DNA of 64,000 bases, from the NCBI GenBank assembly GCA_041661005.1, contig JBAZVG010000001.1, positions 196,917-260,916 on the forward strand, written 5' to 3'. Shown here one piece after another: positions 1,738-62,937 of this stretch. Below the pieces are notes generated by a model. That model was not told where the DNA came from, did no database searches, and saw nothing but the letters and a program-made list of their open reading frames with translations. This DNA comes from Minisyncoccota bacterium (lineage in GTDB: Bacteria > Patescibacteriota > Minisyncoccia > Phycocordibacterales > UBA9973). Position 1 is the first letter of the stretch. Each line of letters starts with the position of its first letter. Position numbers and translations under genes: made by a program.

Positions 1738-2754
1738 ATGCAAGAACAAAATCAGGGGCTCGTGCAAGAGCTTCAGGACGTTCAGACGTTTATCATTGGA
1801 GACAGTAAAATCGCGCTCGAAATGCGTATTCTCGCCAAGAAGCTTGGAGAAACTGATCACAAGGTTCTCATCCAAGGAGAAACTGGAGTTGGGAAAGAAA
1901 ACGCTGCCAGAGAAATTCACAAGAACGGACGCCAAGATAAACCGTTCGTGCCAGTGAATTGCTCGGCACTGCCTGAGAACCTTATCGAAAGTGAATTGTT
2001 TGGTCACAAGAAGGGTTCATTCACGGGTGCTATCGAGGACAGGAAAGGTTACTTTGAAACAGTCGAGGATGGCACTCTCTTACTCGACGAGATAGGAACA
2101 TTACCTTTACCTTCGCAGGTGAAAATCTTGCGAGTTCTTCAAGATGGGGTATTTAGTCCAGTTGGCGATCGACGTCCAATTCAACTCAAGGCGAGGGTTA
2201 TTGCCGGGACAAACATCGACCTTGAAAATGCGATACATAAAGGAGAGTTTCGCTCGGATCTTTTCCATCGTCTGAATGTGATTCCATTTTTTGTTCCGCC
2301 TCTGCGAGAACGTTTGGAGGATGTGCCTCTACTCGTTGAGCACTTTCTCAATAAGGAACAAGGAGAGGACAAACTCAAAAGATTCACTGCGGAAGCAATG
2401 GTGATGATGCAGGGCTATCACTGGCCAGGCAACATTCGTGAACTTGAGAATGCAGTTGCGCGTGCAGTGTTTTTCTCTAACGGAGAGATGGACATTAAGG
2501 TTGGGCACCTTTGTCTTCATCCCAAACTCAGAAATATGGATGAATCCGATCCTGTTTCTGGTGATGAGTTTAGGAGAGAGGGGAGGTTCATAAATTTTTA
2601 TGAGCTTGAAGAGCTCTATCTCCGAAAGCTCTTGGTAGAAGCAAGAGGAAATGTTTATCGGAGTGCCATCATTTCAGGTTTGCATCGTAACACCATCATA
2701 AGGCAGGTTAGTGAGTTCAAACTTGAACATTTGACTAATAAGCATAAAAAATAG
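1738..2754 (+). CDS. Sigma-54-dependent transcriptional activator (AAA+ enhancer-binding protein domain plus C-terminal Fis-type HTH, no N-terminal sensor domain; PspF-like)
   Basis: Motifs GETGVGKE (Walker A), GSFTGA (GAFTGA-like sigma-54 contact), LLLDEIG (Walker B), RVIAGTN and FRSDLFHRLNV. C-terminal HTH reads RSAIISGLHRNTIIRQV. Confidence 0.8.
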   Translation: MQEQNQGLVQELQDVQTFIIGDSKIALEMRILAKKLGETDHKVLIQGETGVGKENAAREIHKNGRQDKPFVPVNCSALPENLIESELFGHKKGSFTGAIEDRKGYFETVEDGTLLLDEIGTLPLPSQVKILRVLQDGVFSPVGDRRPIQLKARVIAGTNIDLENAIHKGEFRSDLFHRLNVIPFFVPPLRERLEDVPLLVEHFLNKEQGEDKLKRFTAEAMVMMQGYHWPGNIRELENAVARAVFFSNGEMDIKVGHLCLHPKLRNMDESDPVSGDEFRREGRFINFYELEELYLRKLLVEARGNVYRSAIISGLHRNTIIRQVSEFKLEHLTNKHKK

Positions 2755-6856: not shown

Positions 6857-8581
6857 ATGGACAATATTAGTAAAAATAGAATATGTCAAAATTGTCGAGG
6901 TGAATTTGTAATCGAATCGGAGGATTTTAATTTCTACGAAAAGATGAAAGTTCCTGCGCCGACTTTTTGTCCGGAGTGTCGACTCATCAGGAGGCTTGTG
7001 TTGAGAAATGAGCGTATTTTATACAAACGTGAGTGTAATTTATGTAAAAAAAATATTATTTCGATTTATCATCAATCTGTACCTTTTCCAGTGTATTGTC
7101 TTCAATGCTGGTACGGCGATGGCTGGGATCCAGTTTCTTTCGGGCGGGACTATGACTTCTCTAGGCCCTTTTTTGAACAATGGAAAGGATTTTCCGATTC
7201 TGCTCCACGACTTGCTTTATGGCACAGAAATGCGATCAATTCCGATTACTCGAGCTTTGTAGGAGAGTCGAAGAATGTTTATTTATCAGTCTCGGTAGTT
7301 CTTGGATCAGAAAATGTATTTTATTCAAAATTTGTGGATAAATCAACGGATATTGTTGATTGTTTGAATATTAAAGACGGACAAATTCTTTATGAAGACA
7401 TAGAGGGCGAAAAAAATTACAATTGCCAGCACCTTTTCTTATCAAAGAATTGTATTGATTCTTTTTTTCTCGTTGACTGCACAAATTGCAGTAATTGTTT
7501 ACTTTCCCATAATTTGCGTAATAAAGAATTTTACATTCGTAATGTGAAATATTCAAAAGAAGAATATTTTAAAGAATTGGAAAAAATTAATTTAAAAAGC
7601 AGAGCGTCAAGAAAAATTTCATTGGAAGAATTTGAAAAAATCAAAATAAAATCTATTTATCGTTTTGCCAATATTGTAAAATCTGTGAACTCAACAGGGA
7701 ATAATCTTTTAAATGTTAAAAATTGTAAAAATTGTTTCGAAGTTTATGATGCTGAAAATTTAAAATATTGTTATCGGGTATTGAGATCTTTTAAAGATTC
7801 CATGGATACGAGTTATGGGATGAAATCTGAATTAATTTATGAATATATAACTGGCGCTAATACTGATTATAATGTGAAATTTTCTTCCTCTGGAATAAAT
7901 TATGTGCAAAATGCCGAATATACTGATTGTTGCATTAATTGTAATAATATTTTTGGTTGCATTTCTCTGAAGAATAAAGAAAACGCGGTTTTTAATAAAA
8001 TTTACACTAAAGAAGAATTTTTTAAACTTCGTGAAAAAATTATTGACCACATGAATGAAATGCCCTATGTTGACCAAAAGGGAAGAGTTTATAAATATGG
8101 AGAATTTTTCCCAATAGAATTGTCTCCGTTTGCCTACAATGAAACTTTGGCGCAGGAGATAGCTCCGATTACAGAGAAGCAAGCAAGCGCAGAAGGTTAT
8201 CCATGGCGCAAGTCGGACCAAAAGAATTTCAAAATTACAATTCCTGCGGAAGATATTCCAGACAACATCAATGAAGTAAGTGACAAAATTTTGAATGAAG
8301 TTTTGGGTTGCGCGCATGAAGGGAAATGTGAACATCAGTGTAATGAAGCTTTTCGCATAACCAATTATGAATTAAATTTTTATAAAAAACACAGTATACC
8401 ATTGCCGATTCTTTGTCAGAATTGCCGTTATTATGAAAGATCGAAAGTTATGCCATCACTCAAATTGTGGCACAGAAAGTGTATGAAAAAAGGTTGCGAA
8501 AATGAATTTGAAACCTCATATGCTCCAAATCGGCCGGAGATTATTTATTGTGAGCGTTGTTATCAGCAAGAAGTTTATTAA
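6857..8581 (+). CDS. Large cysteine-rich protein of unknown function (574 aa), paralog of 55332-57041
   Basis: ~40 Cys. N- and C-terminal modules read CxxC ... FY.KM.VP.PT.CP.CR, with internal C.NC.NCF.C..L.NK repeats. Clearly alignable end-to-end with the second copy. Confidence 0.8.
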   Translation: MDNISKNRICQNCRGEFVIESEDFNFYEKMKVPAPTFCPECRLIRRLVLRNERILYKRECNLCKKNIISIYHQSVPFPVYCLQCWYGDGWDPVSFGRDYDFSRPFFEQWKGFSDSAPRLALWHRNAINSDYSSFVGESKNVYLSVSVVLGSENVFYSKFVDKSTDIVDCLNIKDGQILYEDIEGEKNYNCQHLFLSKNCIDSFFLVDCTNCSNCLLSHNLRNKEFYIRNVKYSKEEYFKELEKINLKSRASRKISLEEFEKIKIKSIYRFANIVKSVNSTGNNLLNVKNCKNCFEVYDAENLKYCYRVLRSFKDSMDTSYGMKSELIYEYITGANTDYNVKFSSSGINYVQNAEYTDCCINCNNIFGCISLKNKENAVFNKIYTKEEFFKLREKIIDHMNEMPYVDQKGRVYKYGEFFPIELSPFAYNETLAQEIAPITEKQASAEGYPWRKSDQKNFKITIPAEDIPDNINEVSDKILNEVLGCAHEGKCEHQCNEAFRITNYELNFYKKHSIPLPILCQNCRYYERSKVMPSLKLWHRKCMKKGCENEFETSYAPNRPEIIYCERCYQQEVY

Positions 8582-8615
8582 ATTTAAAATTTATGATACA
8601 ATAAAATCATGCAAT

Positions 8616-8732
8616 CCCGTTAGAAGCCGCGGTCGCAGTATTATATAAAAATTATGAAGTGGAAAAATATAGAAATTAATAGTTTAATCAAGCACAGTTA
8701 CGGTTTATTGACCGCGACCTGCTTCTAACGGG
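8616..8732. mobile_element. MITE-like element: 12-bp perfect terminal inverted repeats CCCGTTAGAAGC/GCTTCTAACGGG flanked by a 7-bp direct repeat ATGCAAT
   Basis: Read from the sequence. The right-hand copy of the direct repeat is the frr start codon (ATGCAAT at 8733-8739); the left-hand copy is at 8609-8615. Confidence 0.55.
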
Positions 8733-9284
8733 ATGCAATACAATTTTTCAAACTTTAAAACAGAAATTAAAAAAGTAGGGGATTTTTTAAGCAAAGAATA
8801 TAGCCAATTAAATATTGGACGAGCGTCGCCTATGGTTTTGGACGGCGTTTCCGTAGAATCATACGGATCTCGTGTCCCGTTAAAAAACACCGCTTCTGTT
8901 TCCATTGAGGATCCGAAAACTTTGCGCGTGGTGCCTTGGGACAAGGGTCAAATAAAAGATATTGAAAAGGCTATCAATGCGGCCAATCTGGGGCTGTCAG
9001 TTGCGACCGATGATGCTGGTATTCGAGTTATTTTTCCACAGTTAACGACGGATACAAGGCAATCTCTCGTGAAAGTGCTGAAAGAAAAATTGGAGGAAAC
9101 CAGAATCACTGTGCGTCGCGAGCGTGAAAGTATTTGGAAAGACGTAGAAGCCAAAGAAAAGGAAGGCAAGCTGACCGAAGATGAAAAATTTAGAGCAAAG
9201 GAAGAATTACAAAAAATTATAGATGAAGCTAACAGAAACCTAGAGGCAAGTTTCGAAAAAAAGCAGAAAGAAGTCATGGGGTAG
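8733..9284 (+). CDS. frr: Ribosome recycling factor
   Basis: 183 aa. Pattern GRASPMVLDGV.VE.YG ... WDK ... IEKAI ... LGL ... IRV.FP.LT.D.R matches RRF. Confidence 0.9.
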   Translation: MQYNFSNFKTEIKKVGDFLSKEYSQLNIGRASPMVLDGVSVESYGSRVPLKNTASVSIEDPKTLRVVPWDKGQIKDIEKAINAANLGLSVATDDAGIRVIFPQLTTDTRQSLVKVLKEKLEETRITVRRERESIWKDVEAKEKEGKLTEDEKFRAKEELQKIIDEANRNLEASFEKKQKEVMG

Positions 9285-9296
9285 AGCCGTATGAAT

Positions 9297-49482: not shown

Positions 49483-50709
49483 ATGCAAAAAAACACCAAA
49501 AAAATTGAAGGAAAATTTATTAAAGCTTTAACTTTTGATTTACAAAAAGATGGCTGGGACAAAAGCCGTGGCTTTGTCATGCGTGATGTATCGATGCCAG
49601 TTTTAAATGAAAAAAGTAATCCCGAAGATTCAATTTCTGTTATCGTAAAAATACGATACGCAGGTGTCTGTGGTTCTGATAGGGGACTTTGGCATAGGAC
49701 ATCTTTTAAAGATTTAGTTCATAGTTCTCTTGAAAAAGAGGGAAAAACTATGAGGATAACCGGACATGAATTTGTGGGAGAAATTGTAGAAGCTGGCAGT
49801 ATGGTGAAAAATCTTTATTATGATAAAGATCCACAAAATAAAGCAAAAATAGAAGTCGGCGGTCTCGTGTCTGGAGATTCTCATGTCACATGCGGGCGTT
49901 GCTATCAATGCAGGATAGGTGAAGGACATGTTTGTCTAAATGAGTCAATTCTTGGGATTTCCATTGATGGTATTTTTGCGGAGTATGTAAAAATTCCAGC
50001 AAAAAATTTATGGGCAGTGGATGAAAGTCGTCTTCGTACTGAAATTGCATCTATCTATGATCCATTTGGTAATGCCGTCCATGCGACAACAAAGGTAGAT
50101 TTTCGCGGACAACGGGTGGCTATTTTTGGTTGCGGACCTATTGGATTATTTTCGATTTTGCTAGCGCGCAATTTTGGCGCGGCAAAAATTATTGCTGTAG
50201 ATATACTTCCCGAAAATTTAAAAATGGCAAAAGAGCTGGGCGCGCATGAAACTATTCTTATTCCAGAAACTAAAAAAGAAAATAATTGGGAAAGTGATAA
50301 GTCTGTGGTTGATCAAATCATGAAATTAACCTATGGCAAAGGTGTGGATGTGTCCATGGAAATGTCTGGAGCTTTTTCATCAGTAAATAATGCTATCGAT
50401 AGCACTCGTCGCGGGGGTGACGTCATATTTTTTGGAATCAAAGATGGTGATCTGGTAATACCAAAATTTTCCCGTGTTATTGTGCGAGGTTTGACCATGC
50501 ATAACATTATCGGCCGTGAAATCTTTCGCACATGGCAAATAGCGCAACGTATTTTGAATGATAAAAGTAATGGAATTCAAGATGCCATTTGGAATATAAT
50601 TCTAAAAAGTGGGAAGGGAACTATTTTATCGTTTAAAGATTTTACACCTGAAAGTTTTGAAAAAGCAATGAACGAAAATCCAAAAATTATTTTCAAAATT
50701 AACGGCTAA
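49483..50709 (+). CDS. tdh: L-threonine 3-dehydrogenase (zinc-dependent MDR family)
   Basis: GHEFVGEIVEAG and CGRCYQCRIGEGHVC zinc motifs, GCGPIGL Rossmann fold; followed by kbl. Confidence 0.75.
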   Translation: MQKNTKKIEGKFIKALTFDLQKDGWDKSRGFVMRDVSMPVLNEKSNPEDSISVIVKIRYAGVCGSDRGLWHRTSFKDLVHSSLEKEGKTMRITGHEFVGEIVEAGSMVKNLYYDKDPQNKAKIEVGGLVSGDSHVTCGRCYQCRIGEGHVCLNESILGISIDGIFAEYVKIPAKNLWAVDESRLRTEIASIYDPFGNAVHATTKVDFRGQRVAIFGCGPIGLFSILLARNFGAAKIIAVDILPENLKMAKELGAHETILIPETKKENNWESDKSVVDQIMKLTYGKGVDVSMEMSGAFSSVNNAIDSTRRGGDVIFFGIKDGDLVIPKFSRVIVRGLTMHNIIGREIFRTWQIAQRILNDKSNGIQDAIWNIILKSGKGTILSFKDFTPESFEKAMNENPKIIFKING

Positions 50710-50787
50710 AAAATACCTGTCCCGTACTAAATTTTTGAGTAAAACAAATGGTCAATATTAATAACAATTTAAAATTTTAGTACTGGG

Positions 50788-51120
50788 ATGGATATAAAAT
50801 CAAATAAAGAAAATAAAAGTTGTGCGATAAAGTTTACAGCCGAAGAAAATTGTAAAATTTTGGGCCGAGCATACCTTTATATTGTGTTCAACGATTTACA
50901 CAAAGAACCTTTTGGATTTATGGAGGACGTCTTTGTGGAGGAAAAAAATCGTGGCAAAGGCATTGGAACAAAACTTGTAAATGAAGTAATAGCCGAAGCA
51001 AAGAAACAAAATTGTTATAAAATTATCTGTACAAGTCGTTATGAAAAACCCGAAGTTCATTCATTATATAAAAAGCTTGGTTTTAAAGATCATGGTAAAG
51101 AATTTAGAATAGATTTATAA
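50788..51120 (+). CDS. GNAT-family N-acetyltransferase
   Basis: FVEEKNRGKGIGTKLV...YKKLGF match motif A/B. Confidence 0.6.
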   Translation: MDIKSNKENKSCAIKFTAEENCKILGRAYLYIVFNDLHKEPFGFMEDVFVEEKNRGKGIGTKLVNEVIAEAKKQNCYKIICTSRYEKPEVHSLYKKLGFKDHGKEFRIDL

Positions 51121-51132
51121 TAGTAAAACTAT

Positions 51133-52356
51133 ATGTATTCAAAAAAATTGATTCAAGATATTGAGAATGAGTTAAAAGCGCTTCAACAGGCCGGTAAATT
51201 TAAAGTTGAAAGGGAATTAGAGGGTGCGCAGGGTCCGGAAGTGGAAATAAATAGTAAGAAAGTTCTAATGTTTGCCTCCAATAATTACTTGGGTTTAGCA
51301 AATCATCCTGAAATAGTTAAAGCGAGCAAAGAAGCGATAGATAAATATGGTTTTGGACTTTCTTCTGTGCGTTTTATTTCTGGTACTGAAACGATACACA
51401 AAATTTTAGAAAAGAAATTGTCAGAATTTTTAGGCACAGAAGACGTCATTCTATATTCTACAAATTTTATGGCAAATTTAGGATTTTTTGCGACTATTAC
51501 CAATGAAGCTTTAGGTAGCACAGAATATATAGACGCTATTTACAGTGATGAACTAAACCATGCTAGCATTATTGATAGCTTCAAGCTTTGTAAAAAAGAA
51601 AATGTTGTGAAAAGAATTTATCCACATGGTGATTTGGTTGCATTAGAAAAAATACTTGAAGAAGATGAAACTAAAAACTACCGATTTAAAATCATTGTTA
51701 CGGATGGAGTTTTTTCGATGGAAGGATATTTAGCGCAACTACCAAAAATTGTGGAGCTTTCAAAGAAATACGAGACATTAGTCTTTGTGGATGATGCGCA
51801 TGCTATAGGGGTGCTCGGTAAAACAGGCGCAGGTACGCCAGAGCATTTCGGTCTTCACGGAAAAATTGATGTCCTCTCTGGAACTTTTGGTAAAGCGCTC
51901 GGTGGAGCAGTCGGTGGATATATCGCGGGTAAAAAAGAAATTATAGAATTACTTCGTCAAAAATCCCGCACTTATCTTTTTTCAAATTCTGTACCTCCAT
52001 CTGTAGTTATCGCTTCTATTAGGGCATTAGATTTATTAAAAGAAAAACCAGAACTTCTAAAAAAAGTTAGAGAAAATTCAGAATATTTTAGAAATGGAGT
52101 CAAGAAAATGGGTTTTAATGTTTTAGAGGGTGATCATCCGATAGTGCCAGTCATGCTCGGTGATGCTGCTAAAACTCAAGAAATGAGTAAAAAACTATTA
52201 GAAAAAGGCCTTTTTGTTGTAGGTCTTTGGTTTCCAGTTGTGCCAGAAGGTACAGCTAGACTGCGTTTTCAGCTTTCCGCCGCGCATACCCGTGAACAGA
52301 TAGATCAAGCGCTAAAAATAATGGGAGAGGTTGGTAAAGAAATGAAAATAGTATAA
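51133..52356 (+). CDS. kbl: 2-amino-3-ketobutyrate CoA ligase (glycine C-acetyltransferase)
   Basis: PLP-dependent AOS family: FASNNYLGLANHP ... DDAHA.G ... SGTFGKALGG. Confidence 0.85.
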   Translation: MYSKKLIQDIENELKALQQAGKFKVERELEGAQGPEVEINSKKVLMFASNNYLGLANHPEIVKASKEAIDKYGFGLSSVRFISGTETIHKILEKKLSEFLGTEDVILYSTNFMANLGFFATITNEALGSTEYIDAIYSDELNHASIIDSFKLCKKENVVKRIYPHGDLVALEKILEEDETKNYRFKIIVTDGVFSMEGYLAQLPKIVELSKKYETLVFVDDAHAIGVLGKTGAGTPEHFGLHGKIDVLSGTFGKALGGAVGGYIAGKKEIIELLRQKSRTYLFSNSVPPSVVIASIRALDLLKEKPELLKKVRENSEYFRNGVKKMGFNVLEGDHPIVPVMLGDAAKTQEMSKKLLEKGLFVVGLWFPVVPEGTARLRFQLSAAHTREQIDQALKIMGEVGKEMKIV

Positions 52357-52365
52357 TATGTCAGT

Positions 52366-55335
52366 ATGATTTCACGGATATATGTGATACCTAAAAACGA
52401 AGCAACCAAGGCAGATTCTTATTTGATTGACTCTAAATTATCTAAAAAAGAACTTGTAAAACTAGCTCAGACACTTACTAATCCTATTTTGGAGGATTAT
52501 TTTATAGACGAATCTCCAAGAGTTGGAAACTTTTCCCATGCAATCGAAATAGGATTTTTACCGGGGGTCACAGATAATGTCGGCCATACAGTCAAAGAAA
52601 TTGCGACAGATATGCTTCATCTAAAAAAGAATTTCAGTTTGGCGGTTTATACCTCCAAGATTTTTTTTATTAATTCACACGGCCTTGAAGACGCCCAGAA
52701 ACACTCTCTTACTTTATACAATCCGCTTATTGAAAGAGCCCTTTTTGTAGAGATAAAATCCGGAAAAATAGATTTGCCAAATAAAATACCTGAAGTTGTT
52801 TTAAGAAAAGGTGTGTCAATTTTACCTGTTTCACTTTCAGTGTCAGATGAAGAACTTATAAAAATAGGGAAAGAAGGAATACTGGACGAGACAAATTTAC
52901 GCAGGGGACCTTTAGCGCTTGATCTATCTTCAATGCAAGCTATTCAAAAATATTTTTCTTCGCTAAAAAGAAACCCGACTGATATAGAGCTCGAATCTCT
53001 AGCTCAAACTTGGTCAGAACATTGCAAGCACACTATTTTTGCAAATGAAATAGATGATATTAAAGATGGCTTGTATAAAACTTACATAAAAGGGGCGACA
53101 AATTTAATAAGAAAACAAAAGACAGAGAGAGGTCAGCAGGATTTTTGTGTTTCTGTTTTTAGTGATAATGCTGGCGGAATAATTTTTGATGAAGATTATT
53201 TAATAACACACAAAGTCGAAACCCATAACAGCCCTTCGGCTCTCGATCCATTTGGTGGAGCAATCACAGGCATAGTAGGGGTGAATCGCGACACAATCGG
53301 CTTTGGATTGGGCGCCAAACCGATAGCCAATACTTATGGATTTTGTTTTGGTAATCCGGAAGATACAAGACCGCTTTTTCGAGATAAAGAGCAGAAACAA
53401 AGAATGCTTTTACCGAAACGCATCATGGAAGGGGTGGTAAAGGGAATAAACGTCGGAGGAAACTGCTCCGGGATTCCGACTCTTTCTGGATTTATCAAAT
53501 TTGACGATAGATATAGGGGGAAACCTTTGGTTTTTGCCGGAACTGTTGGATTAATTCCAAGAAACTTATCTATCCATGGAGGGAAAAAACAACTATCGCA
53601 TGAAAAACAGGCACGAGTAGGGGATTATATAGTTATGGTTGGTGGAAGGGTAGGACTCGATGGAATACATGGAGCCACTTTTTCTTCCGTAACTATGGAT
53701 TCGACTTCTCCTGCGACAGCAGTGCAGATAGGAGATCCGATAACTCAAAAGAAACTTAGCGATAGCATCGTCAAAGAAGCGCGCGATATGAATTTATATA
53801 CTAGCATCACAGATAACGGTGCTGGTGGGCTGTCATGTTCAGTATCCGAGATGGCAAAAGAATGCGGTGGAGCAAAAGTTTTCATAGAAAAAATACCACT
53901 TAAATATCCAGGTCTTCTTCCTTGGGAAATTTGGATTTCTGAATCGCAAGAACGAATGACTTTGTCTGTTCCAAAAAATAAATGGAAAATGTTCCAAAAG
54001 TTGATGGAAAGTCGGGGGGTAGAAGCGATTGTGATTGGAGAATTCACAAATTCTGGAAAAGTTATCGTGCAATATAAAGGAAAAAAAATTATGGATATAG
54101 ATATGGAGTTTTTGCACAACGGATTGCCGAAACATTATTTAAACACTACTCCAGTGATAATCAAAAATCTTGAGCCTGCATTACCTAAAGGTCTATCACG
54201 CACAAAGGTTCTAGAAAAATTGTTAGGTGAAAAAAATATCAGCGGATTTGCTTTCATTTCCGAGCAGTATGACCACGAGGTGCAAGCATCTTCCGTGTTA
54301 AAACCGTTGTCCGGGAGGGGACGTATTAATACCGACAGTCAAATTTTTCGTCCGGTTTTGAATTCAAACAAAGGAGTTGTGTTGTCATCCTCAAGCTATC
54401 CTTCATACGGAGACATAAGCTCTTATGACATGGCATCTTGCGCGCTCGATACTGCAATTCGAAACATAATTGCATCAGGTGGTACGCTTTCACACCTTGC
54501 GATACTAGATAATTTCTGCTGGTGCTCATCAAATGATCCGAAACGGCTATACCAGCTTGTAGAGGCTGTAAAGGCTTGTCATGACACAGCTATCGGCTAC
54601 GGGACGCCGTTTATCTCTGGTAAAGACAGTATGTTCAATGATTTTAAAGGATATGATGAAAAAGGTAATCCTGTTTCTATCTCCATCCCGCCAACCCTTT
54701 TGATTTCTGCGATTAGTGTAATGCCTGATTTATATAAAACAGTTTCACCAGAATTTAAAAATAGTGGGGATATAATTTATTTACTGGGAGAAACGCATGA
54801 TGAATTAGGCGCAAGCGAATATTATAAACTTTTGGTAAAACAAGAGGGGAATAATGCAACCCACCTAGACCCGCTTCGATGCGAGGCGAGCTCGGCGAGG
54901 CTGGTAGGCAATAGTGTGCCAAAAGTTAATTTAGAAAAAAATCTAAAAACTTATTTAGCGTTAGAGAAGGCTATTCAAAAAGAACTGTTAGCTTCTTCGC
55001 TTTCTGTAACTTCCGGAGGCTTTGGAATCGCCTTAACTAAAGCATCTATTGGTGGAATGCTCGGATGTGAAATAAACATCAAAAACATGCTGGGGGGCTC
55101 AAATTTGGCCGATGTGAAGCTTTTTTCTGAAAGCCAGGGTAGGATATTGGTTTCTGTATCTCCTAAAAACACAAAGCAGTTTGAAAGAATAATGCAGGAA
55201 ATTCCTTGTGCTAAACTTGGAAAAGTAACAAAAAATGATAAGTTTGTAATTTTAGATGGTAAAGATAAAATTGTCGAAACAAATATTAAAAAATTGCACG
55301 CCATTTATCATAAATTTTCGAATTCACAACAATGA
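52366..55335 (+). CDS. purL: Phosphoribosylformylglycinamidine synthase subunit PurL with a large-type N-terminal (PurS-like) domain; glutaminase encoded separately
   Basis: RNPTDIELESLAQTWSEHCKHTIF (compare NP.DIEL.M.AQ.NSEHCRHKIF), VETHNSPSALDPFGGA, AIR-synthase-like domains; 989 aa. Carries an in-frame 45-nt element at 54860-54904. Confidence 0.85.
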   Translation: MISRIYVIPKNEATKADSYLIDSKLSKKELVKLAQTLTNPILEDYFIDESPRVGNFSHAIEIGFLPGVTDNVGHTVKEIATDMLHLKKNFSLAVYTSKIFFINSHGLEDAQKHSLTLYNPLIERALFVEIKSGKIDLPNKIPEVVLRKGVSILPVSLSVSDEELIKIGKEGILDETNLRRGPLALDLSSMQAIQKYFSSLKRNPTDIELESLAQTWSEHCKHTIFANEIDDIKDGLYKTYIKGATNLIRKQKTERGQQDFCVSVFSDNAGGIIFDEDYLITHKVETHNSPSALDPFGGAITGIVGVNRDTIGFGLGAKPIANTYGFCFGNPEDTRPLFRDKEQKQRMLLPKRIMEGVVKGINVGGNCSGIPTLSGFIKFDDRYRGKPLVFAGTVGLIPRNLSIHGGKKQLSHEKQARVGDYIVMVGGRVGLDGIHGATFSSVTMDSTSPATAVQIGDPITQKKLSDSIVKEARDMNLYTSITDNGAGGLSCSVSEMAKECGGAKVFIEKIPLKYPGLLPWEIWISESQERMTLSVPKNKWKMFQKLMESRGVEAIVIGEFTNSGKVIVQYKGKKIMDIDMEFLHNGLPKHYLNTTPVIIKNLEPALPKGLSRTKVLEKLLGEKNISGFAFISEQYDHEVQASSVLKPLSGRGRINTDSQIFRPVLNSNKGVVLSSSSYPSYGDISSYDMASCALDTAIRNIIASGGTLSHLAILDNFCWCSSNDPKRLYQLVEAVKACHDTAIGYGTPFISGKDSMFNDFKGYDEKGNPVSISIPPTLLISAISVMPDLYKTVSPEFKNSGDIIYLLGETHDELGASEYYKLLVKQEGNNATHLDPLRCEASSARLVGNSVPKVNLEKNLKTYLALEKAIQKELLASSLSVTSGGFGIALTKASIGGMLGCEINIKNMLGGSNLADVKLFSESQGRILVSVSPKNTKQFERIMQEIPCAKLGKVTKNDKFVILDGKDKIVETNIKKLHAIYHKFSNSQQ
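54860..54904 (+). repeat. 45-nt palindromic element copy inside purL (translated THLDPLRCEASSARL)
   Basis: CCCACCTAGACCCGCTTCGATGCGAGGCGAGCTCGGCGAGGCTGG. Confidence 0.75.
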
Positions 55336-57041
55336 AAGCTGAAACAAAAATCTGTCAAAACTGTAAAAAGGATTTCGTCATCGAATCGGATGATTTTGGA
55401 TTTTATAAAAAGATGGGTGTACCGGTGCCGACTTTTTGCCCTGACTGTAGGTTTCAAAGAAGACTTTTATTTAGAAATAATCGAGTGTTTTATAAACGCG
55501 AGTGTGCTTTTTGTAAGAAAGTAGTTCTAAGTTTATATAATAAGGATCGTCCTTTTATAGTTTATTGTCATGATTGCTGGTTTTCAGATAAATGGGATGT
55601 AATGAGTTATGGACGTGATTATGATTTTTCAATTCCATTTTTTAGACAATTTCAATTACTCCAAAAAGCAGTACCCAGAGCAAACTTATACCAAACAAAT
55701 TTCGTTTCAAGTGAATATTGTAATTACGGACTAGATTTTAAAGAATGTTATCTTTTATTTGGAGGTCATAATAACGAGCGAGTTTATTTTGGCAATCAGG
55801 TTTTTGATTCCCGTGATTCCTTTGATATTGCATTCTCAGCAACAAATGAACTTAGCTATGAAATTTTCGAGGGTAAAAGTTTAAACAAAGTTGTTTATAG
55901 TTCTTATTCAAAAGATTGTATAGACAGCCATTATCTAATTTTTTGCAAAAATTGCATTAATTGTTTTGGTTGTATCGGGCTGGTAAATAAGCAATATTAT
56001 ATTTGGAATATCCCACATTCGAAAGCAAGTTATGAAAAGTTCATTAAAGAAAATCAAGGAAGCTATACAAGGCACCTTGAAAATTTAAGAAAACTTCAGG
56101 AATTGAAATTAGAATTACCACACAGATATGCGAGAGTATACCAATCTGTAAATTCTGACGGTGATGATATTAGAAGATGTAGAAATACCCACATGGCTTT
56201 CACGTCCAGTGATGCGGAAAACTCCAAACATCTTTTTTTTTGCGTAAGAGGCGCAAACGAGTGCTATGATAATTCTTTTCAGGGTACAGGTAGTGAACTC
56301 TTATATGAAATAGCCCACGGTTTCGGTGGTTCCAGAAGTATTGTCGGTGTCGGAAATTTTAGTAATCAAGATTCACAATATAATGAGGAATGCCACGATT
56401 GTTTAAATATTTTTGGATGCGAAGGATTGCGAAAGAAACAATATTGTATTTTGAATAAACAATATAGTAAGGAAGAGTATGAAAAAATATTACCTAAAAT
56501 AATTGTGCATATGAAAAGCACGAGAGAATATGGTGAATTTTTCCCTAGTAATTTATCTCCGTTTTCATACAACGAAACTATTGCGCAAGAATATTTTCCT
56601 TTAAACAAAGAAGACGCCCTAAAACAAGGTTTTCTATGGCAGGACAGTGAAGCCAGGAATTATAAAATTGATATAGAAAATCAGGATATACCGGATAACA
56701 TCCAAGATGTTACGGAAAATATAGTGAGTAAAGTGATTGCTTGCGGACACGAAGGTAAATGCAAACATCAATGTACTGAGGCATTTAAAATTGTCTCTGA
56801 AGAATTTAAATTCTATAAAAAAATGAATTTGCCCTTGCCTAGACTATGTCCGAATTGTAGACATTATCAGCGTATCAATTTAAGAAATCCATTGAAACTT
56901 TGGGAGAGAGTTTGCATGTGCGAAAAAGAAAATCATTTTCACGGGCAAGAAAAATGTGTAGTAGAATTCAAAACGAGCTATGCATCAGACAGACCAGAAA
57001 TAGTGTATTGTGAAAAATGTTATCAACAAGAAATTTATTAA
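55332..57041 (+). CDS. Large cysteine-rich protein, paralog of 6857-8581, embedded in the pur operon
   Basis: 569 aa; N- and C-terminal modules and internal Cys repeats are collinear with the first copy. ATGA overlap with the purL stop codon. Confidence 0.8.
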   Translation: MKAETKICQNCKKDFVIESDDFGFYKKMGVPVPTFCPDCRFQRRLLFRNNRVFYKRECAFCKKVVLSLYNKDRPFIVYCHDCWFSDKWDVMSYGRDYDFSIPFFRQFQLLQKAVPRANLYQTNFVSSEYCNYGLDFKECYLLFGGHNNERVYFGNQVFDSRDSFDIAFSATNELSYEIFEGKSLNKVVYSSYSKDCIDSHYLIFCKNCINCFGCIGLVNKQYYIWNIPHSKASYEKFIKENQGSYTRHLENLRKLQELKLELPHRYARVYQSVNSDGDDIRRCRNTHMAFTSSDAENSKHLFFCVRGANECYDNSFQGTGSELLYEIAHGFGGSRSIVGVGNFSNQDSQYNEECHDCLNIFGCEGLRKKQYCILNKQYSKEEYEKILPKIIVHMKSTREYGEFFPSNLSPFSYNETIAQEYFPLNKEDALKQGFLWQDSEARNYKIDIENQDIPDNIQDVTENIVSKVIACGHEGKCKHQCTEAFKIVSEEFKFYKKMNLPLPRLCPNCRHYQRINLRNPLKLWERVCMCEKENHFHGQEKCVVEFKTSYASDRPEIVYCEKCYQQEIY

Positions 57042-57045
57042 AATA

Positions 57046-57900
57046 ATGAAAAATAAAAAACTACATTCGCATAGCTCAGTATTTTCGGCAAAAAAGCCTC
57101 GGATTATAATAATGTCCGGTTACGGACTTAATTGTGAAGAAGAAACAAAATTCGCTTTTGAGACGACAGGTGGAATTGCGAATATTGTGCATATCAATGA
57201 CCTTATCGCTAAACCGAAGATGCTTTCACAATATCAAATACTGGTTTTTCCGGGAGGGTTTTCTTATGGCGATGATACTGGTAGTGGAAAAGCTTATGCA
57301 AATAAATTTAAAAATCATCTAGAAAAAGAACTAGAGGAATTCTTATCTCGCGACACTCTCACTATAGGTATTTGTAACGGATTTCAAATCATAACTAATT
57401 TAGGAATTTTACCCGGTGCGTTAACGCATAATAAAAATGGTAAATATATCGACCGTTGGGTGGACCTGACCACCTCCACAGGAAGCTCCAGTGTGTCAAA
57501 GGAAGTTAGTCCATGGCTTAAAGATATTAAAAGTATATCGCTTCCGATAGCGCACGGCGAAGGGCATTATGTTGTTGACCCAAAGAAATACAAAGAATTA
57601 GAAAAAAATAACCAGATAGCTTTTAAATATACCAAAGGGGAAATTTGTAAATTTCAAAATCTCGAAAAAAATCCTAATGGCTCGGAACATGACATTGCGG
57701 GAGTTTTGGCATATAATGGTAGGGTATTGGGAATGATGCCCCATCCGGAAAGGGCCATGTTTTCACACCAGAGTCCGTTGTGGTCCCTCGACAAAACTCG
57801 GGATAAACAGAAAATAAAAAAGGAAGGAATAGGTTTACAAATTTTTAAAAACGCAGTTAATTATTTCAAGAATCATGAGAAAAATTTCTTAGGAAAATAA
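57046..57900 (+). CDS. purQ: Phosphoribosylformylglycinamidine synthase glutaminase subunit
   Basis: Class I GATase: RIIIMSGYGLNCEEET, FPGGFSYGDD, GICNGFQ and a catalytic His region. The ORF track begins it at 57010 with a non-ATG codon. Confidence 0.8.
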   Translation: MKNKKLHSHSSVFSAKKPRIIIMSGYGLNCEEETKFAFETTGGIANIVHINDLIAKPKMLSQYQILVFPGGFSYGDDTGSGKAYANKFKNHLEKELEEFLSRDTLTIGICNGFQIITNLGILPGALTHNKNGKYIDRWVDLTTSTGSSSVSKEVSPWLKDIKSISLPIAHGEGHYVVDPKKYKELEKNNQIAFKYTKGEICKFQNLEKNPNGSEHDIAGVLAYNGRVLGMMPHPERAMFSHQSPLWSLDKTRDKQKIKKEGIGLQIFKNAVNYFKNHEKNFLGK

Positions 57901-57931: not shown

Positions 57932-59365
57932 ATGAAAGATTTAAACGAAAAGTGCGCAGTATTTGGAATTTTTGGAGACAAAAATTCTTTAGAAAATAGA
58001 ATTGCAAGAGAGACATATTTCGGATTATTTTCTTTACAACATCGCGGACAGGAACATTCGGGGATTGCGACGACTGACGGTGAAAGACTTCACATGCACA
58101 AAAGCTCAGGCTTGGTAAGTCAAATTTATACTGAAGAAATTTTAAAAAAACTTCCCGGTTTTGCCGCCATTGGACACAATCGCTATTCTACATCCAATGG
58201 AAATCATGTCGAATACGCCCAGCCATTTCTTTACGATAATCTTTTTGCTTTTGGGCATAATGGCAATTTGCCGAGCACGGCAAAATTGGTTGAATTCTTA
58301 AAAAAAAATAATGAAATATCAAAAAATCTTTCTGATTCACAACTCATGACGCAAGCCATCGGTGTATATGTAAAAAAAGGAGAATCACTCGCTGACTCTA
58401 TTGAAAAAACTTACCCACTTTTTACTGGAGCGTTCTCTTGTGTAGTGCTGGGATTAAACGAACTGATAGCTTTTCGCGATTCGTGTGGTATTCGCCCGCT
58501 TATTTTAGGTAAAAGAGGGAACGAAACAATCATATGTTCTGAGACATGCGCGTTAAACACTCTCGGAGCAGAATTCATAAGGGAAATAGATCCCGGAGAA
58601 ATGGTTATTGTCACAAAAAATGGCATTAAAAGCAGAAAAATAGCCAAAGCCAAGCCAAAATTTGATATTTTTGAATTTGTTTATTTTGCTCGTTATGACA
58701 GCATGATGCTCGGCAAATCTGTTTACGAAGTTAGAAAAAACTTAGGACGCATGCTCGCGCGTCAAAACAAAACACAGAATAAAATTAACAGCGGAGTAAA
58801 CGATGTCGACATGATAATTCCCGTGCCGGAATCAGCCATATCGGCCTCGATCGGCTACGCAGAAGAATCAGGCATACCATTTGAAATGGCTATTTCTAAG
58901 AACCGTTATATTAATCGCACTTTTATCGAACCCACCCAAGAGATTCGAGCGGAAAAAGTGAAATTAAAACTCTCTCCACTCAAAAGCGTAATCTTTGGAA
59001 AAAAAATTGCGGTAATGGATGATTCGATAGTGCGAGGCACAACTAGCAAGCAAATTGTAAAAATGCTTTTTGAAGCAGGCGCAAAAGAAGTGCATTTCTT
59101 GGTGAGTTCTGCGCCGATACGTTTCCCTGATTTTTACGGTATTGATACCCCGAATCAAAAAGAACTTATTGCTTCAAAGAAGACAATAAAAGAAATCTGT
59201 AAATTCCTTGGAGCGACATCACTTTCATATTTATCAATTGACGGAATGGTGTCTGCAACGGGGTTACCCAAAGAATGTTTTTCGCTTGCTTCTTTTGATG
59301 GAGTTTATCCGGTTGATATTCATGAACGCGCCAAAGAGATAAATTACGATGTCCCAAAAGACTAA
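57932..59365 (+). CDS. purF: Amidophosphoribosyltransferase
   Basis: N-terminal MKDLNEKCAVFGIFG (Ntn Cys) and a PRTase domain with DDSIVRGTT. Confidence 0.9.
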   Translation: MKDLNEKCAVFGIFGDKNSLENRIARETYFGLFSLQHRGQEHSGIATTDGERLHMHKSSGLVSQIYTEEILKKLPGFAAIGHNRYSTSNGNHVEYAQPFLYDNLFAFGHNGNLPSTAKLVEFLKKNNEISKNLSDSQLMTQAIGVYVKKGESLADSIEKTYPLFTGAFSCVVLGLNELIAFRDSCGIRPLILGKRGNETIICSETCALNTLGAEFIREIDPGEMVIVTKNGIKSRKIAKAKPKFDIFEFVYFARYDSMMLGKSVYEVRKNLGRMLARQNKTQNKINSGVNDVDMIIPVPESAISASIGYAEESGIPFEMAISKNRYINRTFIEPTQEIRAEKVKLKLSPLKSVIFGKKIAVMDDSIVRGTTSKQIVKMLFEAGAKEVHFLVSSAPIRFPDFYGIDTPNQKELIASKKTIKEICKFLGATSLSYLSIDGMVSATGLPKECFSLASFDGVYPVDIHERAKEINYDVPKD

Positions 59366-61280: not shown

Positions 61281-61572
61281 AAATAAAAAGAGCCGTCCCT
61301 CTGGGTGGGACGGCTCGGGTTGAAATTGATGTCTGTTTGTTGTGCTTGTACTGGAAGCACTGCCATTTTAGGCGGAGGTGGTACCCAGTCTTGTTCAAAA
61401 ACACCGTGATATTTTGAATTAAATTGGGAACCTCTTCCGTTTGTTTGGACCAATAAAACTTGAACAACAGTCGAAATTATGCGACAGAAAAGTCCGCATA
61501 CCGACTGGTAAAAGAAGAACAGCATACTTAGTGAGGACTATAACACAGAAAAGATAAATAAATCAAGTAAAT

Positions 61573-62937
61573 CTATCTATCCCAATTAAAAAAGTGCTCG
61601 CGGTCAGGACCGGTGCCGACGGAGATGATTTTCACATCGAGATCGGCTAGTTCAGCTTTTATATATTTTAAATACGAGGCTAATTCTTTTGAAACTTTCT
61701 TTTTGTCTCTTACCCCATAATTAGCTTTTCCCCAGCCGGGTATTTCTTCTGTCACTACGCTTTTTATTTCACTTAAGTAAAGCGGGAATTCCTTGAAATT
61801 TTTCCCAGCATTGTTTTTGTATCCAGTCACAACTTTCACTTTATCGCTCAGGCAGATATCGGCCTTATTTATAAAAATTTTATTGGCGCCCGATAAGGTA
61901 ATCGCATAACGAAGCGCAAACAGATCGAGCCAGCCACACATACGAGGTCTTCCAGTCGTAGCTCCGAATTCATGTCCAGCATTTTGAAAAAGTTTTTCTA
62001 GAGCTTCGTCTTTGATTCTAGAAGGAAAATTTCCACCACCCACTTTAGTAGTATAAGCTTTAATAACTCCATATATATTTCTGATTGCAGTATGAGGCAC
62101 ACCCAAACCGAGACACGCATTCGCCGGCAGGGTATTACTGCTTGTGACATTTGGATAATCTCCAAAATCAATATCAAGCATGACAGCTTGCGCTCCCTCG
62201 GCTAAAATATTTTTACCCTCGCGCAATCGTGTTTGAATCAAAAATGCTAAATCGCAAATTTGTAATTTTTTCATTTCTTTCACAGCTTTCAGCCATTTTT
62301 CTTTTGTTTCTTTTATTTTTTCTACAGGAATTTCAAAACCATACTTCTCTTTATACATATTCAAGATATTCATGTGGAATTCCGCAAGAGCTGTTTCTTT
62401 TTGTTCAAAATCAGAAAGAAGTATGTCGCCGATTAGAAGCCCTCTTCGAGCTCGCACATCGCTATAAGCAGGACCGATACCTCTTGAAGTCGTGCCTATT
62501 TTTGTTCCTAGTTTATTTCTGCGATATTCGTCAGCCTGATCTAAAAACGGATGTAAATATGAAACTAATTTTGCGCGATTAGAAATATAAAGACAAGAGG
62601 CAACATCAAACCCTAAACTTTTCAATTGGGACATTTCTGCCGTCAATGACACAGCATCGACTACGACACCATTGCCAATATATAATTCTATATTTTTTTG
62701 CAAACATCCAGAAGGCACGATATGTCCGATGAAAGTCACATCGCCCAATTTGAGAGTGTGTCCGGCATTTGCTCCGCCTTGGAAACGCGCTACCCCCGAA
62801 TAATCACCCCTCGATAGAAGCTCATCTATATTTTTTCCTTTTCCCTCGTCTCCCCATTGCAGGCCGACAACTACATCAACAAATCCATGTCGAGACGATG
62901 AGCGAGCTTTTTTATTTTTTACAATTTTACTTTTCAT
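61573..62937 (-). CDS. purA: Adenylosuccinate synthetase
   Basis: QWGDEGKGK P-loop, GIGP and TTGR motifs; ~20-aa N-terminal extension in the ORF track. Confidence 0.9.
   Translation of the reverse strand: MKSKIVKNKKARSSSRHGFVDVVVGLQWGDEGKGKNIDELLSRGDYSGVARFQGGANAGHTLKLGDVTFIGHIVPSGCLQKNIELYIGNGVVVDAVSLTAEMSQLKSLGFDVASCLYISNRAKLVSYLHPFLDQADEYRRNKLGTKIGTTSRGIGPAYSDVRARRGLLIGDILLSDFEQKETALAEFHMNILNMYKEKYGFEIPVEKIKETKEKWLKAVKEMKKLQICDLAFLIQTRLREGKNILAEGAQAVMLDIDFGDYPNVTSSNTLPANACLGLGVPHTAIRNIYGVIKAYTTKVGGGNFPSRIKDEALEKLFQNAGHEFGATTGRPRMCGWLDLFALRYAITLSGANKIFINKADICLSDKVKVVTGYKNNAGKNFKEFPLYLSEIKSVVTEEIPGWGKANYGVRDKKKVSKELASYLKYIKAELADLDVKIISVGTGPDREHFFNWDR

What the first reader, a model, noticed from the sequence alone, without database searches (positions are those of the whole stretch)
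55332..57041. Cysteine-rich paralog is translationally coupled inside the purine operon between purL and purQ
Its ATG overlaps the purL TGA (ATGA at 55332-55335) and it ends 4 nt before the purQ ATG, so it is almost certainly co-transcribed and stoichiometrically co-expressed with the FGAM synthase subunits. This system has a PurL with a large-type N-domain but a separate PurQ and no recognisable purS in the window. A dedicated Zn-ribbon-rich partner could be a novel assembly, regulatory or channelling component of the FGAM synthase complex. Alternatively it may be an operon-embedded passenger.
Basis: inference. Interest (0 to 1): 0.8.

Follow-up and report, generated by a model that had tools for sequence, protein, structure and literature searches.

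The report
Unknown zinc-finger gene lodged in purine operon
The cysteine-rich gene between purL and purQ is real and probably co-expressed with them, but it is a dispensable copy of a large, uncharacterised, multi-copy zinc-finger protein family found so far only in Patescibacteria, not a purine-enzyme subunit.

Summary
A 569-aa, 32-Cys ORF (55332-57041) starts in the ATGA that ends purL and stops 4 nt before purQ. A 42.5%-identical paralog lies at 6857-8581.

The idea of a dedicated FGAM-synthase partner does not hold.
- Among 50 non-redundant purL..purQ junctions found by searching with PurQ, 21 have no such gene, and 12 of those show a direct purL/purQ ATGA overlap. The rest carry 1-3 copies from at least eight paralog groups, sometimes with unrelated genes.
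- Empty and occupied junctions are interleaved on a PurL+PurQ tree.
- Close orthologs of this gene also lie far from pur genes, in tandem arrays of up to 8-9 paralogs.

The gene belongs to a family of at least 2,000 clusters at 50% identity, seen here only in Patescibacteria. It is under strong purifying selection (dN/dS about 0.05). No curated family, solved structure or paper was found for it.

The predicted structure has two homologous double zinc-finger modules flanking a duplicated beta-solenoid. I read it as a zinc-stabilised binding or scaffold protein, retained from a decaying paralog array that sits in the pur operon. Its function is unknown. One lead is a recurrent neighbourhood with orphan VirD4/HerA-like ATPases.

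The parts
55332..57041 (+). Gene X: 569-aa cysteine-rich protein of a multi-copy family seen here only in Patescibacteria. It is identical to NCBI 'hypothetical protein WC735_01480 [Candidatus Paceibacterota bacterium]'.
   Evidence: ORF and translation. The 100% database match and more than 7,600 homolog clusters. 4,948 clusters at 50% identity with E<=1e-3. dN/dS 0.04-0.06.
55332..55335 (+). ATGA start/stop overlap between purL and X. In relatives without X, the same overlap joins purL directly to purQ.
   Evidence: Sequence. Empty junctions in L078 and L096. 12 loci with a gap of -4.
55332..55616 (+). N-terminal double zinc-finger module (aa 1-95). It has a treble-clef-like C8/C11/C36/C39 site followed by a basic helix (RFQRRLLFRNNR), then a C58/C61/C79/C82 ribbon. 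Net charge is +8.
   Evidence: Invariant Cys. Sub-threshold Pfam zf_Tbcl match at 18.3 bits. AF2 pLDDT 88-92.
55686..56465 (+). Duplicated beta-solenoid core (aa 119-228 and 262-378). Each half ends in a Cys knuckle, C-x2-C-x2-(C/I)-F-G-C-x-G-L-x-x-K-Q-Y-x-I-x-N, followed by a helix.
56532..56735 (+). Acidic middle segment (aa 401-468, charge -8) with the family-wide motif GEFFP..LSPF.YNET.AQE.FPL...G..W.
   Evidence: Conservation and charge. pLDDT 81-94.
56736..57038 (+). C-terminal double zinc-finger module (aa 469-569), homologous to the N-terminal module and LIM-like.
   Evidence: The N-module aligns to the C-terminal regions of family members in tblastn. Conserved Cys. Weak zf_Tbcl_2 and LIM hits in family members.
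52366..55335 (+). purL: a fusion of a PurS-like N-domain (52366-52905), a linker and the FGAM synthetase domain, without the glutaminase domain.
57046..57900 (+). purQ, the glutaminase subunit of FGAM synthase.
   Evidence: Pfam GATase_5 E 1.4e-71 and TIGR01737 above its cut-off.
6857..8581 (+). Second family member in the window (574 aa, 42.5% identical to X). It lies between holB and frr in the cluster mreB-holB-Xpar-frr-rseP-map-ddl-alr.
   Evidence: tblastn. Neighbour Pfam annotation. Its own conserved ortholog set at 57-71% identity.

Best explanation
Gene X is not part of FGAM synthase. It is one member of a large, uncharacterised, multi-paralog protein family found here only in Patescibacteria. 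In this Paceibacteria subgroup a tandem array of these paralogs lies between purL and purQ and is being lost piecemeal, so relatives carry 0, 1, 2 or 3 copies of different paralog types in a consistent order. The window keeps one of them. Because the genome is tightly packed, X is read through from the pur promoter and its ATG sits in the purL stop (ATGA). It is therefore probably co-transcribed and translationally coupled, but as a passenger.

The protein itself is cytoplasmic and built on zinc sites. It has two homologous, basic double zinc-finger modules at the ends. Between them lie a duplicated beta-solenoid with Cys knuckles and a conserved acidic segment.

My inferred mechanism is a non-enzymatic binding or scaffold protein. 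The parts shared by all paralogs (the zinc-finger modules and the 'EFFP...YNET' motif) would dock to a common partner, either a protein or a nucleic acid. The paralog-specific solenoid surface would give each paralog its own target.

Shown: the gene, the overlap, the family, the arrays, the junction polymorphism, purifying selection and the absence of known homologs. Inferred: co-expression, zinc binding, the array-decay history and the binding/scaffold role.
For: 1. Junction census. Of 59 non-redundant purL..purQ loci, 21 lack any family member: 20 have no gene at all between purL and purQ (12 of them with a 4-nt ATGA overlap) and 1 holds only an unrelated gene. 31 have one copy, 5 have two and 2 have three. 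In the subset found by searching with PurQ, which is not biased toward X, 21 of 50 lack it. The copies belong to at least eight paralog groups.
2. Empty and occupied states are interleaved on a PurL+PurQ NJ tree. For example, empty L096 nests among the window's closest relatives.
3. The order of paralog groups never conflicts across multi-copy loci ({g34,g25}<g21<{g42,g24}; g42<g32). It matches a non-pur array, L006.
4. The empty-site sequence is what a deletion between the ATGAAA starts of X and purQ would produce.
5. Orthologs of X at 60-68% identity lie outside pur operons: in arrays (L006, L010, L011, L014-L016), after relBE (L115) and after dnaJ (L118). Arrays of 7-9 copies occur in Jorgensenbacteria, Staskawiczbacteria and Peribacteria MAGs.
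6. Unrelated genes also occupy the junction in relatives: a HAD hydrolase, a pyroglutamyl peptidase, an HD-domain protein and a TrmB-like regulator on the opposite strand.
7. FGAM synthase is complete without X, because the PurL N-domain is PurS-like.
8. X is functional: dN/dS is 0.04-0.06 and orthologs are 68-72% identical, close to PurL at 68-77%.
9. Architecture: AF2 pLDDT 82.8 and pTM 0.84, conserved Cys sets, basic terminal modules and an acidic middle, and no hydrophobic segment (max KD19 1.3). The solenoids are conserved within ortholog groups but divergent between paralogs.
10. No known homolog was found in Pfam, NCBIfam, PADLOC, PHROGs or the PDB, by sequence or by fold.
Against: - 58% of junctions in this clade do hold at least one family member, and the association persists across PurQ divergence of 70-80%. 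Some benefit of co-expression with purine genes is therefore not excluded.
- No interaction test with PurL or PurQ could be run, because no multimer prediction was available.
- The array-decay history rests on an unbootstrapped NJ tree and on clustering of paralogs by identity. Repeated insertion is not formally excluded.
- The binding/scaffold role is inferred only from architecture. A few invariant acidic or polar solenoid residues (K137, E149, D165, D313) could form an unrecognised active site.
- Solenoid 1 is modelled with low confidence (pLDDT 52-59 for aa 160-220).
- Zinc binding is inferred from Cys patterns only.
Confidence: 0.72

Rival explanations
1. One reading: X is a dedicated assembly, regulatory or channelling subunit of the split FGAM synthase (PurL+PurQ), expressed with it through translational coupling.
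For: ATGA overlap with purL and a 4-nt gap to purQ. At least one family member occupies this junction in 29 of the 50 junctions found by searching with PurQ. No stand-alone purS is present in the window.
Against: 21 of 50 relatives have none, mostly with a direct purL/purQ overlap, and these are interleaved phylogenetically with occupied loci. The occupying copies belong to different paralog groups that are only 38-44% identical to X. X orthologs occur away from pur genes. The family is widespread in CPR bacteria, most of which are reported to lack de novo nucleotide synthesis (PMC6744442). The PurS function is already fused to PurL.
Confidence: 0.05
2. X-family proteins are clients, adaptors or partners of orphan, soluble VirD4/TraG/HerA-like ATPases, possibly together with the Hsp70 system. 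Together they would form a Patescibacteria-specific machine, and the pur-operon copy is simply a displaced member.
For: T4CP-like ATPases (Pfam TrwB_AAD_bind, TraG-D_C, DUF87) lie inside or beside X arrays in L014, L022, L023, L024, L027, L118 (two copies) and L120. The one read in full (L118, 691 aa) has no N-terminal membrane segment. Some carry a bona fide zf_Tbcl_2 zinc ribbon (43 bits), which aligns to the second ribbon of X. X genes interleave with grpE/dnaK/dnaJ in L118, L120, L023 and L025. PMC12102498 reports 5,713 VirD4-like homologs in Patescibacteria, only 148 of them near virB4, and says they may have been exapted for other functions.
Against: Only about 8 of roughly 35 non-pur loci show the ATPase, and several of these are syntenic, so they are not independent. 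The window's two copies have no such neighbour. The shared zinc ribbon is short (31 aa, hhalign probability 12%). No co-occurrence statistics or interaction data exist.
Confidence: 0.12
3. X is an enzyme of unknown activity whose active site lies on the beta-solenoid, with paralogs differing in substrate.
For: Each paralog group is strongly conserved. Family-wide invariant K137, E149, D165 and D313 lie in the solenoid. Some beta-helix proteins are enzymes, and the weak fold hits include LbH acyltransferases and gamma-carbonic anhydrase.
Against: No significant match to any enzyme family by sequence or fold. There is no invariant His, Ser or Cys triad outside the zinc sites. Most invariant solenoid residues are Tyr, Asn or Gly, which are typical structural ladder residues.
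Confidence: 0.1
4. X is a selfish or mobile gene, for example a homing-type cassette, that inserts between genes of well-expressed operons.
For: Presence/absence polymorphism at a precise junction. Family members lie between other housekeeping genes: holB|frr, purN|purD, grpE|dnaK, dnaJ|.... Unrelated genes also land at this junction.
Against: No nuclease, transposase or integrase domain. No flanking repeats beyond short chance matches. No relatives in phage, plasmid or IMG/VR collections. Strong purifying selection and ancient, colinear ortholog groups. In a genome of under 1 Mb, almost every gene has housekeeping neighbours.
Confidence: 0.04

Closest known systems
Pfam zf_Tbcl (PF13451) and zf_Tbcl_2 (PF23477), 'probable treble clef' zinc fingers
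   Same: The CxxC...CPxC-plus-helix pattern at both termini. Sub-threshold hits occur at aa 5-44 of X (18.3 bits), in 33 of 83 family members for zf_Tbcl and in 11 of 83 for zf_Tbcl_2.
   Different: Every zf_Tbcl and zf_Tbcl_2 hit whose score was read is below the gathering cut-off. The matches cover at most 45 of 569 residues. These Pfam families have no assigned function themselves, so membership would not explain X.
LIM / cysteine-rich protein (CRP) double zinc fingers
   Same: The C-terminal module aligns with CRP LIM domains (profile E 0.24). 3 of 83 family members hit Pfam LIM, with a best E of 2e-5. LIM domains are protein-binding adaptors, which is the role I infer.
   Different: The match is not significant for X itself. 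The Cys/His spacing differs. LIM is a eukaryotic family. X adds a beta-solenoid core that LIM proteins lack.
Beta-solenoid proteins (Tenebrio antifreeze protein, phi29 gp12, curli CsgA, LbH acyltransferases)
   Same: A parallel beta-solenoid is predicted for aa 119-378. The Cys-rich rungs recall TmAFP. These are the only fold matches.
PurS / N-domain of large PurL (the small structural component of FGAM synthase)
   Different: X has no similarity to PurS. The PurS-like domain is already the first 160 aa or so of this PurL. X is dispensable at this junction.
Orphan VirD4-like coupling-protein homologs of Patescibacteria (PMC12102498)
   Same: They share a short zinc ribbon (zf_Tbcl_2-like) with X and recur as neighbours of X arrays.
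   Different: They are P-loop ATPases and X has no NTPase motif. The linkage appears in only a minority of loci.

Membership tests
FGAM synthase complex (PurS/PurL/PurQ) | Homology to PurS, PurL or PurQ | tested here: not met
   X gives no Pfam or NCBIfam hit to any pur family, whereas its neighbours hit strongly.
FGAM synthase complex (PurS/PurL/PurQ) | Obligate co-occurrence and conserved adjacency with purL/purQ | tested here: not met
   21 of the 50 junctions found by searching with PurQ lack any family member. Orthologs lie elsewhere in other genomes.
FGAM synthase complex (PurS/PurL/PurQ) | Physical interface with PurL or PurQ | not testable with these tools
   No multimer prediction or experiment was available.
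Pfam zf_Tbcl (PF13451) | Score at or above the gathering cut-off (24 bits) | tested here: not met
   18.3 bits, E 0.0023, at aa 5-44. Among 83 family members, 33 hit at E<=0.05, with a best E of 7e-4.
Pfam zf_Tbcl (PF13451) | Four-ligand CxxC...CxxC treble-clef pattern | tested here: met
   C8, C11, C36 and C39 are conserved in 98-100% of 130 family members. The model places strands then a helix here at pLDDT about 90.
LIM domain (PF00412) | Significant profile match with LIM Cys/His spacing | tested here: not met
   X itself gives no hit. 3 of 83 relatives hit at E down to 2e-5. The PDB profile match to CRP has E 0.24.
Left-handed beta-helix acyltransferases / gamma-carbonic anhydrases | Hexapeptide repeats and a significant fold match | tested here: not met
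Known anti-phage defence proteins (PADLOC) | Match to a defence-system model | tested here: not met
   Only a weak Csf1 zinc-ribbon hit (E 0.0033) for X, and none for the paralog.
Mobile elements / homing endonuclease genes | Nuclease or recombinase domain, terminal repeats, presence on phages or plasmids | tested here: not met
   No such domains. No meaningful repeats. No hits in phages, plasmids or IMG/VR.
The uncharacterised ~570-aa Cys-rich family itself (seen here only in Patescibacteria) | Full-length homology with the conserved Cys sets and the N/C module duplication | tested here: met
   More than 7,600 full-length homologs at 90% clustering. 2,075 clusters at 50% identity with E<=1e-30, lengths about 550-600 aa. 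Invariant residues.

The most novel reading that the evidence does not exclude
The ~570-aa zinc-finger/beta-solenoid family would be the specificity layer of a so-far unrecognised Patescibacteria-specific cytoplasmic machine. In this reading, ancient paralogs each recognise a different target through their solenoid surface. They would deliver it, through the shared zinc-finger modules, to orphan soluble VirD4/HerA-like ATPases and possibly Hsp70. That would give those abundant 'exapted' coupling-protein homologs a function. The pur-operon copy would be one such adaptor retained from a decaying array.
Probability: 0.12. Interest if true: 0.75.

Novelty: categorically new. Interest (0 to 1): 0.45.

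Why it matters
For purine biology the result is negative. This split FGAM synthase (a PurS-PurL fusion plus PurQ) needs no extra subunit, and the inserted gene is dispensable.

What remains is a protein family of at least 2,000 clusters at 50% identity with no curated family, no solved structure and no literature found. It is strongly conserved and occurs at up to 8-9 copies per locus. The genomes that carry it are otherwise noted for having almost no paralogs (89 paralogs among 118,635 genes, PMC12455944). A family taking up a percent or so of such a streamlined genome is probably important for the CPR lifestyle. The array dynamics and the ATPase neighbourhood give concrete starting points for working out its role.

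Tried and rejected
- Sequence searches for X and its paralog found nothing above threshold: Pfam, NCBIfam, PADLOC and PHROGs, and the PDB by phmmer and by profile.
- A mobile or viral origin was rejected. There were no hits in phages, plasmids or IMG/VR and no flanking repeats.
- No riboswitch or other Rfam element lies in 46-62 kb. Promoter and terminator counts are at chance level.
- Literature searches found no description of the family: cysteine-rich/paralog/tandem in Patescibacteria, PF13451/zf_Tbcl, CPR protein families, beta-helix/zinc finger, and purine genes in Paceibacteria.
- A profile of the PurL N-terminus against PDB sequences found nothing. The PurS relationship appeared only through homologs and the fold comparison.
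- Mirror-tree co-evolution of X with PurL/PurQ was considered and dropped, because all three share one species tree and the test would not discriminate.
- One Pfam call failed on bad coordinates.
Full report
**1. Observation**

The ORF at 55332..57041 (+) is real. It encodes 569 aa with 32 cysteines. Its ATG overlaps the purL TGA, giving ATGA at 55332-55335. Its TAA at 57039-57041 lies 4 nt before the purQ ATG at 57046.

The neighbours are annotated securely:
- purL at 52366..55335, matching FGAR-AT_linker, AIRS and AIRS_C.
- purQ, matching GATase_5 at E 1.4e-71.
- purF, purN and purD downstream.
- tdh, a GNAT gene and kbl upstream, with glmS before them.
- purA and guaB convergent beyond purD.

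All intergenic distances in the cluster run from -17 to +31 nt. Promoter-like and terminator-like sites occur at chance frequency, and no Rfam element is present. Co-transcription and translational coupling are therefore plausible but not shown. A paralog 42.5% identical over its full length lies at 6857..8581, between holB and frr.

**2. What the gene is**

The protein is identical to an NCBI 'hypothetical protein' from a Candidatus Paceibacterota MAG whose contig is 813 kb. A word-indexed search returned more than 7,600 homolog clusters (90% identity clustering), all unnamed. The paralog has its own set of orthologs at 57-71% identity. An exhaustive profile search of 1.84 billion cluster representatives (50% identity clustering) found 4,948 family members at E<=1e-3 and 2,075 at E<=1e-30. 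Most of the listed members are 550-600 aa long.

The record titles of related loci name the following groups: Nomurabacteria, Staskawiczbacteria, Jorgensenbacteria, Liptonbacteria, Parcubacteria, Gracilibacteria, Peribacteria and Minisyncoccia. These are all Patescibacteria. Many records are only generically labelled.

No curated model covers the protein. Pfam gives only sub-threshold zf_Tbcl, zf_Tbcl_2 and LIM hits on the terminal zinc fingers. NCBIfam, PADLOC and PHROGs give nothing meaningful. PDB sequence and profile searches give nothing. Five literature searches found no description of the family.

**3. Structure**

AlphaFold2 with an 83-sequence alignment gave pLDDT 82.8 and pTM 0.84. 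The predicted architecture is:
- aa 1-95: two zinc ribbons, C8/C11/C36/C39 followed by a basic helix, then C58/C61/C79/C82.
- aa 119-228 and 262-378: two beta-solenoid halves. Each ends in a Cys knuckle (C-x2-C-x2-(C/I)-F-G-C-x-G-L..KQY.I.N) followed by a helix.
- aa 401-468: an acidic segment carrying a family-wide 'EFFP..SPF.YNET' motif.
- aa 469-569: a second double zinc-finger module, homologous to the first.

The terminal modules are basic, at +8 and +4 in X against family means of +3.1 and +4.8. The middle segment is acidic (-8). There is no hydrophobic segment.

Purifying selection is strong. dN/dS is 0.04-0.06 wherever dS could be computed, although dS is high (at least 1.2). X orthologs are 68-72% identical, compared with 68-77% for PurL, 67-79% for PurQ and mostly 53-57% for PurF in the same loci.

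**4. Test of the FGAM-synthase idea**

I fetched 34 loci by searching genome contigs with X and 80 loci by searching metagenome contigs with PurQ. I then mapped the window's genes onto them.

Among 59 non-redundant loci holding both the purL 3' end and the purQ 5' end:

| Junction content | Loci |
|---|---|
| No gene at all between purL and purQ (12 of these with the 4-nt ATGA overlap) | 20 |
| Only an unrelated gene | 1 |
| One family copy | 31 |
| Two family copies | 5 |
| Three family copies | 2 |

In the subset found with PurQ, which is not biased toward X, 21 of 50 junctions lack the family. The resident copies fall into at least eight paralog groups. These include g42, which contains the X orthologs, and g21, g25, g34, g24, g32, g28 and g39.

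Four occupied junctions also carry unrelated genes: a pyroglutamyl-peptidase-like gene, a HAD hydrolase, a TrmB-like regulator on the opposite strand and an unknown 236-aa ORF. One further junction holds only an HD/DUF4202 gene. Copies also sit between purN and purD in L004 and L085.

On an NJ tree of PurL plus PurQ, empty and occupied states are interleaved. Empty L096 nests within the window's own clade, L078 pairs with a g21 locus, and L062 pairs with a three-copy locus.

The empty-site sequences read ...CAAAAATGAAAAATAAAAAACC... in L096 and ...ATGCAATGAAAAATAAAAAACCC... in L078. This is what a deletion between the ATGAAA starts of X and purQ in the window would leave.

**5. Origin of the junction copies**

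Paralog-group order is consistent across all multi-copy loci:
- L018: g21-g42.
- L038: g42-g32.
- L065: g25-g21-g24.
- L071: g34-g21.
- L073 and L102: g25-g42.
- L088: g34-g21-g24.

The order also matches a five-copy array outside any pur context, L006/L116: g25-g35-g42-g32-g22. Elsewhere the family forms co-directional arrays of 7-9 copies with a median spacing of 2 nt (L020, L021, L024, L027, L030). One Staskawiczbacteria MAG carries at least 9 copies on two contigs (L016 and L024).

The simplest history is an ancestral array lodged between purL and purQ that underwent differential loss. Repeated insertion is not formally excluded.

**6. Nothing is missing from the enzyme**

PurL residues 159-830 are colinear with Salmonella large PurL residues 166-861. 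Homologs of the first 180 aa hit Pfam PurS in 14 of 49 cases. An AF2 model of this region (pLDDT 90.7) matches:

No other PurS-like sequence exists in the window. The organism therefore has a 'split large PurL': PurS-like domain, linker and synthetase in one chain, with the glutaminase separate.

**7. Other contexts and a lead**

Orthologs and paralogs sit in varied housekeeping neighbourhoods:
- relBE|X|tRNA-binding protein (L115).
- HPF followed by a five-copy array (L116).
- dnaK|T4CP-like|X|194 aa|X|T4CP-like|dnaJ|X (L118).
- grpE|X|X|paaX-like|dnaK|404 aa|T4CP-like|X (L120).
- mreB|holB|frr|rseP|X|ddl|alr (L121).
- TerC|X|X|X|nrdA|nrdB (L122).

The only recurrent non-pur neighbour is a VirD4/TraG/HerA-like ATPase, found in 8 loci. 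The one read in full (L118, 691 aa) has no N-terminal membrane segment. One of these ATPases carries a bona fide zf_Tbcl_2 ribbon, which aligns weakly to the second ribbon of X.

PMC12102498 reports 5,713 such homologs in Patescibacteria, only 148 of them near virB4, and suggests they may have been exapted for other functions. This is a lead, not a finding: the loci are partly syntenic, and neither copy in the window has such a neighbour.

**8. Rivals**

A mobile or viral origin is unlikely. There are no hits in phage, plasmid or IMG/VR collections, no nuclease or recombinase domain, no terminal repeats, and the ortholog groups are ancient and constrained. An enzymatic role cannot be excluded, but nothing found here points to one.

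**9. Verdict**

The dedicated-partner interpretation is not supported. The passenger alternative is supported.

The gene is nonetheless a member of a large, strongly conserved and entirely uncharacterised family, seen here only in Patescibacteria, with a domain arrangement that has no solved counterpart. That stands out in genomes reported to have almost no paralogs (PMC12455944). Interest is moderate: low for purine metabolism and real for CPR cell biology.

Noticed in passing
window 52366-55335 and 57046-57900: FGAM synthase is a 'split large PurL'. A PurS-like N-domain, the linker and the synthetase are fused in one 989-aa chain, while the glutaminase (PurQ) is a separate gene. In relatives without the inserted gene the two overlap by ATGA.
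   Followed up: yes
window 49483-52356: A threonine-dehydrogenase-like gene, a small GNAT gene and kbl (2-amino-3-ketobutyrate CoA ligase) sit immediately upstream of purL, 9 nt away. This suggests threonine-to-glycine supply is co-encoded with the glycine-consuming purine pathway. The block is present in only some relatives (e.g. L002, L044, L086) and is partly missing in others.
   Followed up: partly
window 57932-59365; loci L019, L035, L068, L081, L110 versus most others: PurF is only 51-57% identical to the window's in most relatives, although their PurQ, PurN and PurD are 60-80% identical. In a few loci PurF is 78-97% identical. This suggests two purF lineages, possibly a replacement, within otherwise syntenic operons.
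   Followed up: no
L003:9163-9873, L004:8910-9563, L058:3543-4076, L074:6773-7456, L091:7271-8083(-): The purL-purQ junction of relatives also hosts unrelated genes: an unknown 236-aa ORF, a pyroglutamyl-peptidase-like gene, an HD/DUF4202 gene, a HAD hydrolase and a TrmB-like regulator on the opposite strand. The junction is a general hot spot for gene gain and loss.
   Followed up: partly
L118:1527-3602 and 7797-9293; L120:11729-13690; L014:3643-5142; L023:978-2480; L027:12054-13877; L022:5788-7461: VirD4/TraG/HerA-like ATPases, some carrying a zf_Tbcl_2 zinc ribbon, recur inside or beside arrays of the Cys-rich family. In L118 and L120 both gene types are interleaved with grpE, dnaK and dnaJ.
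   Followed up: partly
L022:3729-4034, L024, L027, L122:12927-13382: A CutA1 (divalent-ion tolerance) gene lies next to or near arrays of the family in four loci. This may be conserved synteny or a hint of a link to metals.
   Followed up: no
window 6857-8581 versus L121:6001-7719 and L013:10001-11731: Within the conserved mreB-holB-frr-rseP-ddl-alr cluster, the family copy sits between holB and frr in the window but after rseP in L121 and L013. In L013 the copy at that site belongs to the X-type ortholog group, not the paralog's. This again fits shifting remnants of an array.
   Followed up: partly
window 1738-2754: A 338-aa protein consists essentially of a sigma-54 interaction (AAA+) domain plus its lid, with no obvious receiver or DNA-binding domain in the Pfam output.
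   Followed up: no
window 61290-61316 (- strand): The only strong intrinsic-terminator-like hairpin in the region (10 pairs, 8 of them GC, followed by a T-run) lies just beyond the end of purD (61280). It is on the strand of the convergent purA gene (61573-62937).
   Followed up: no
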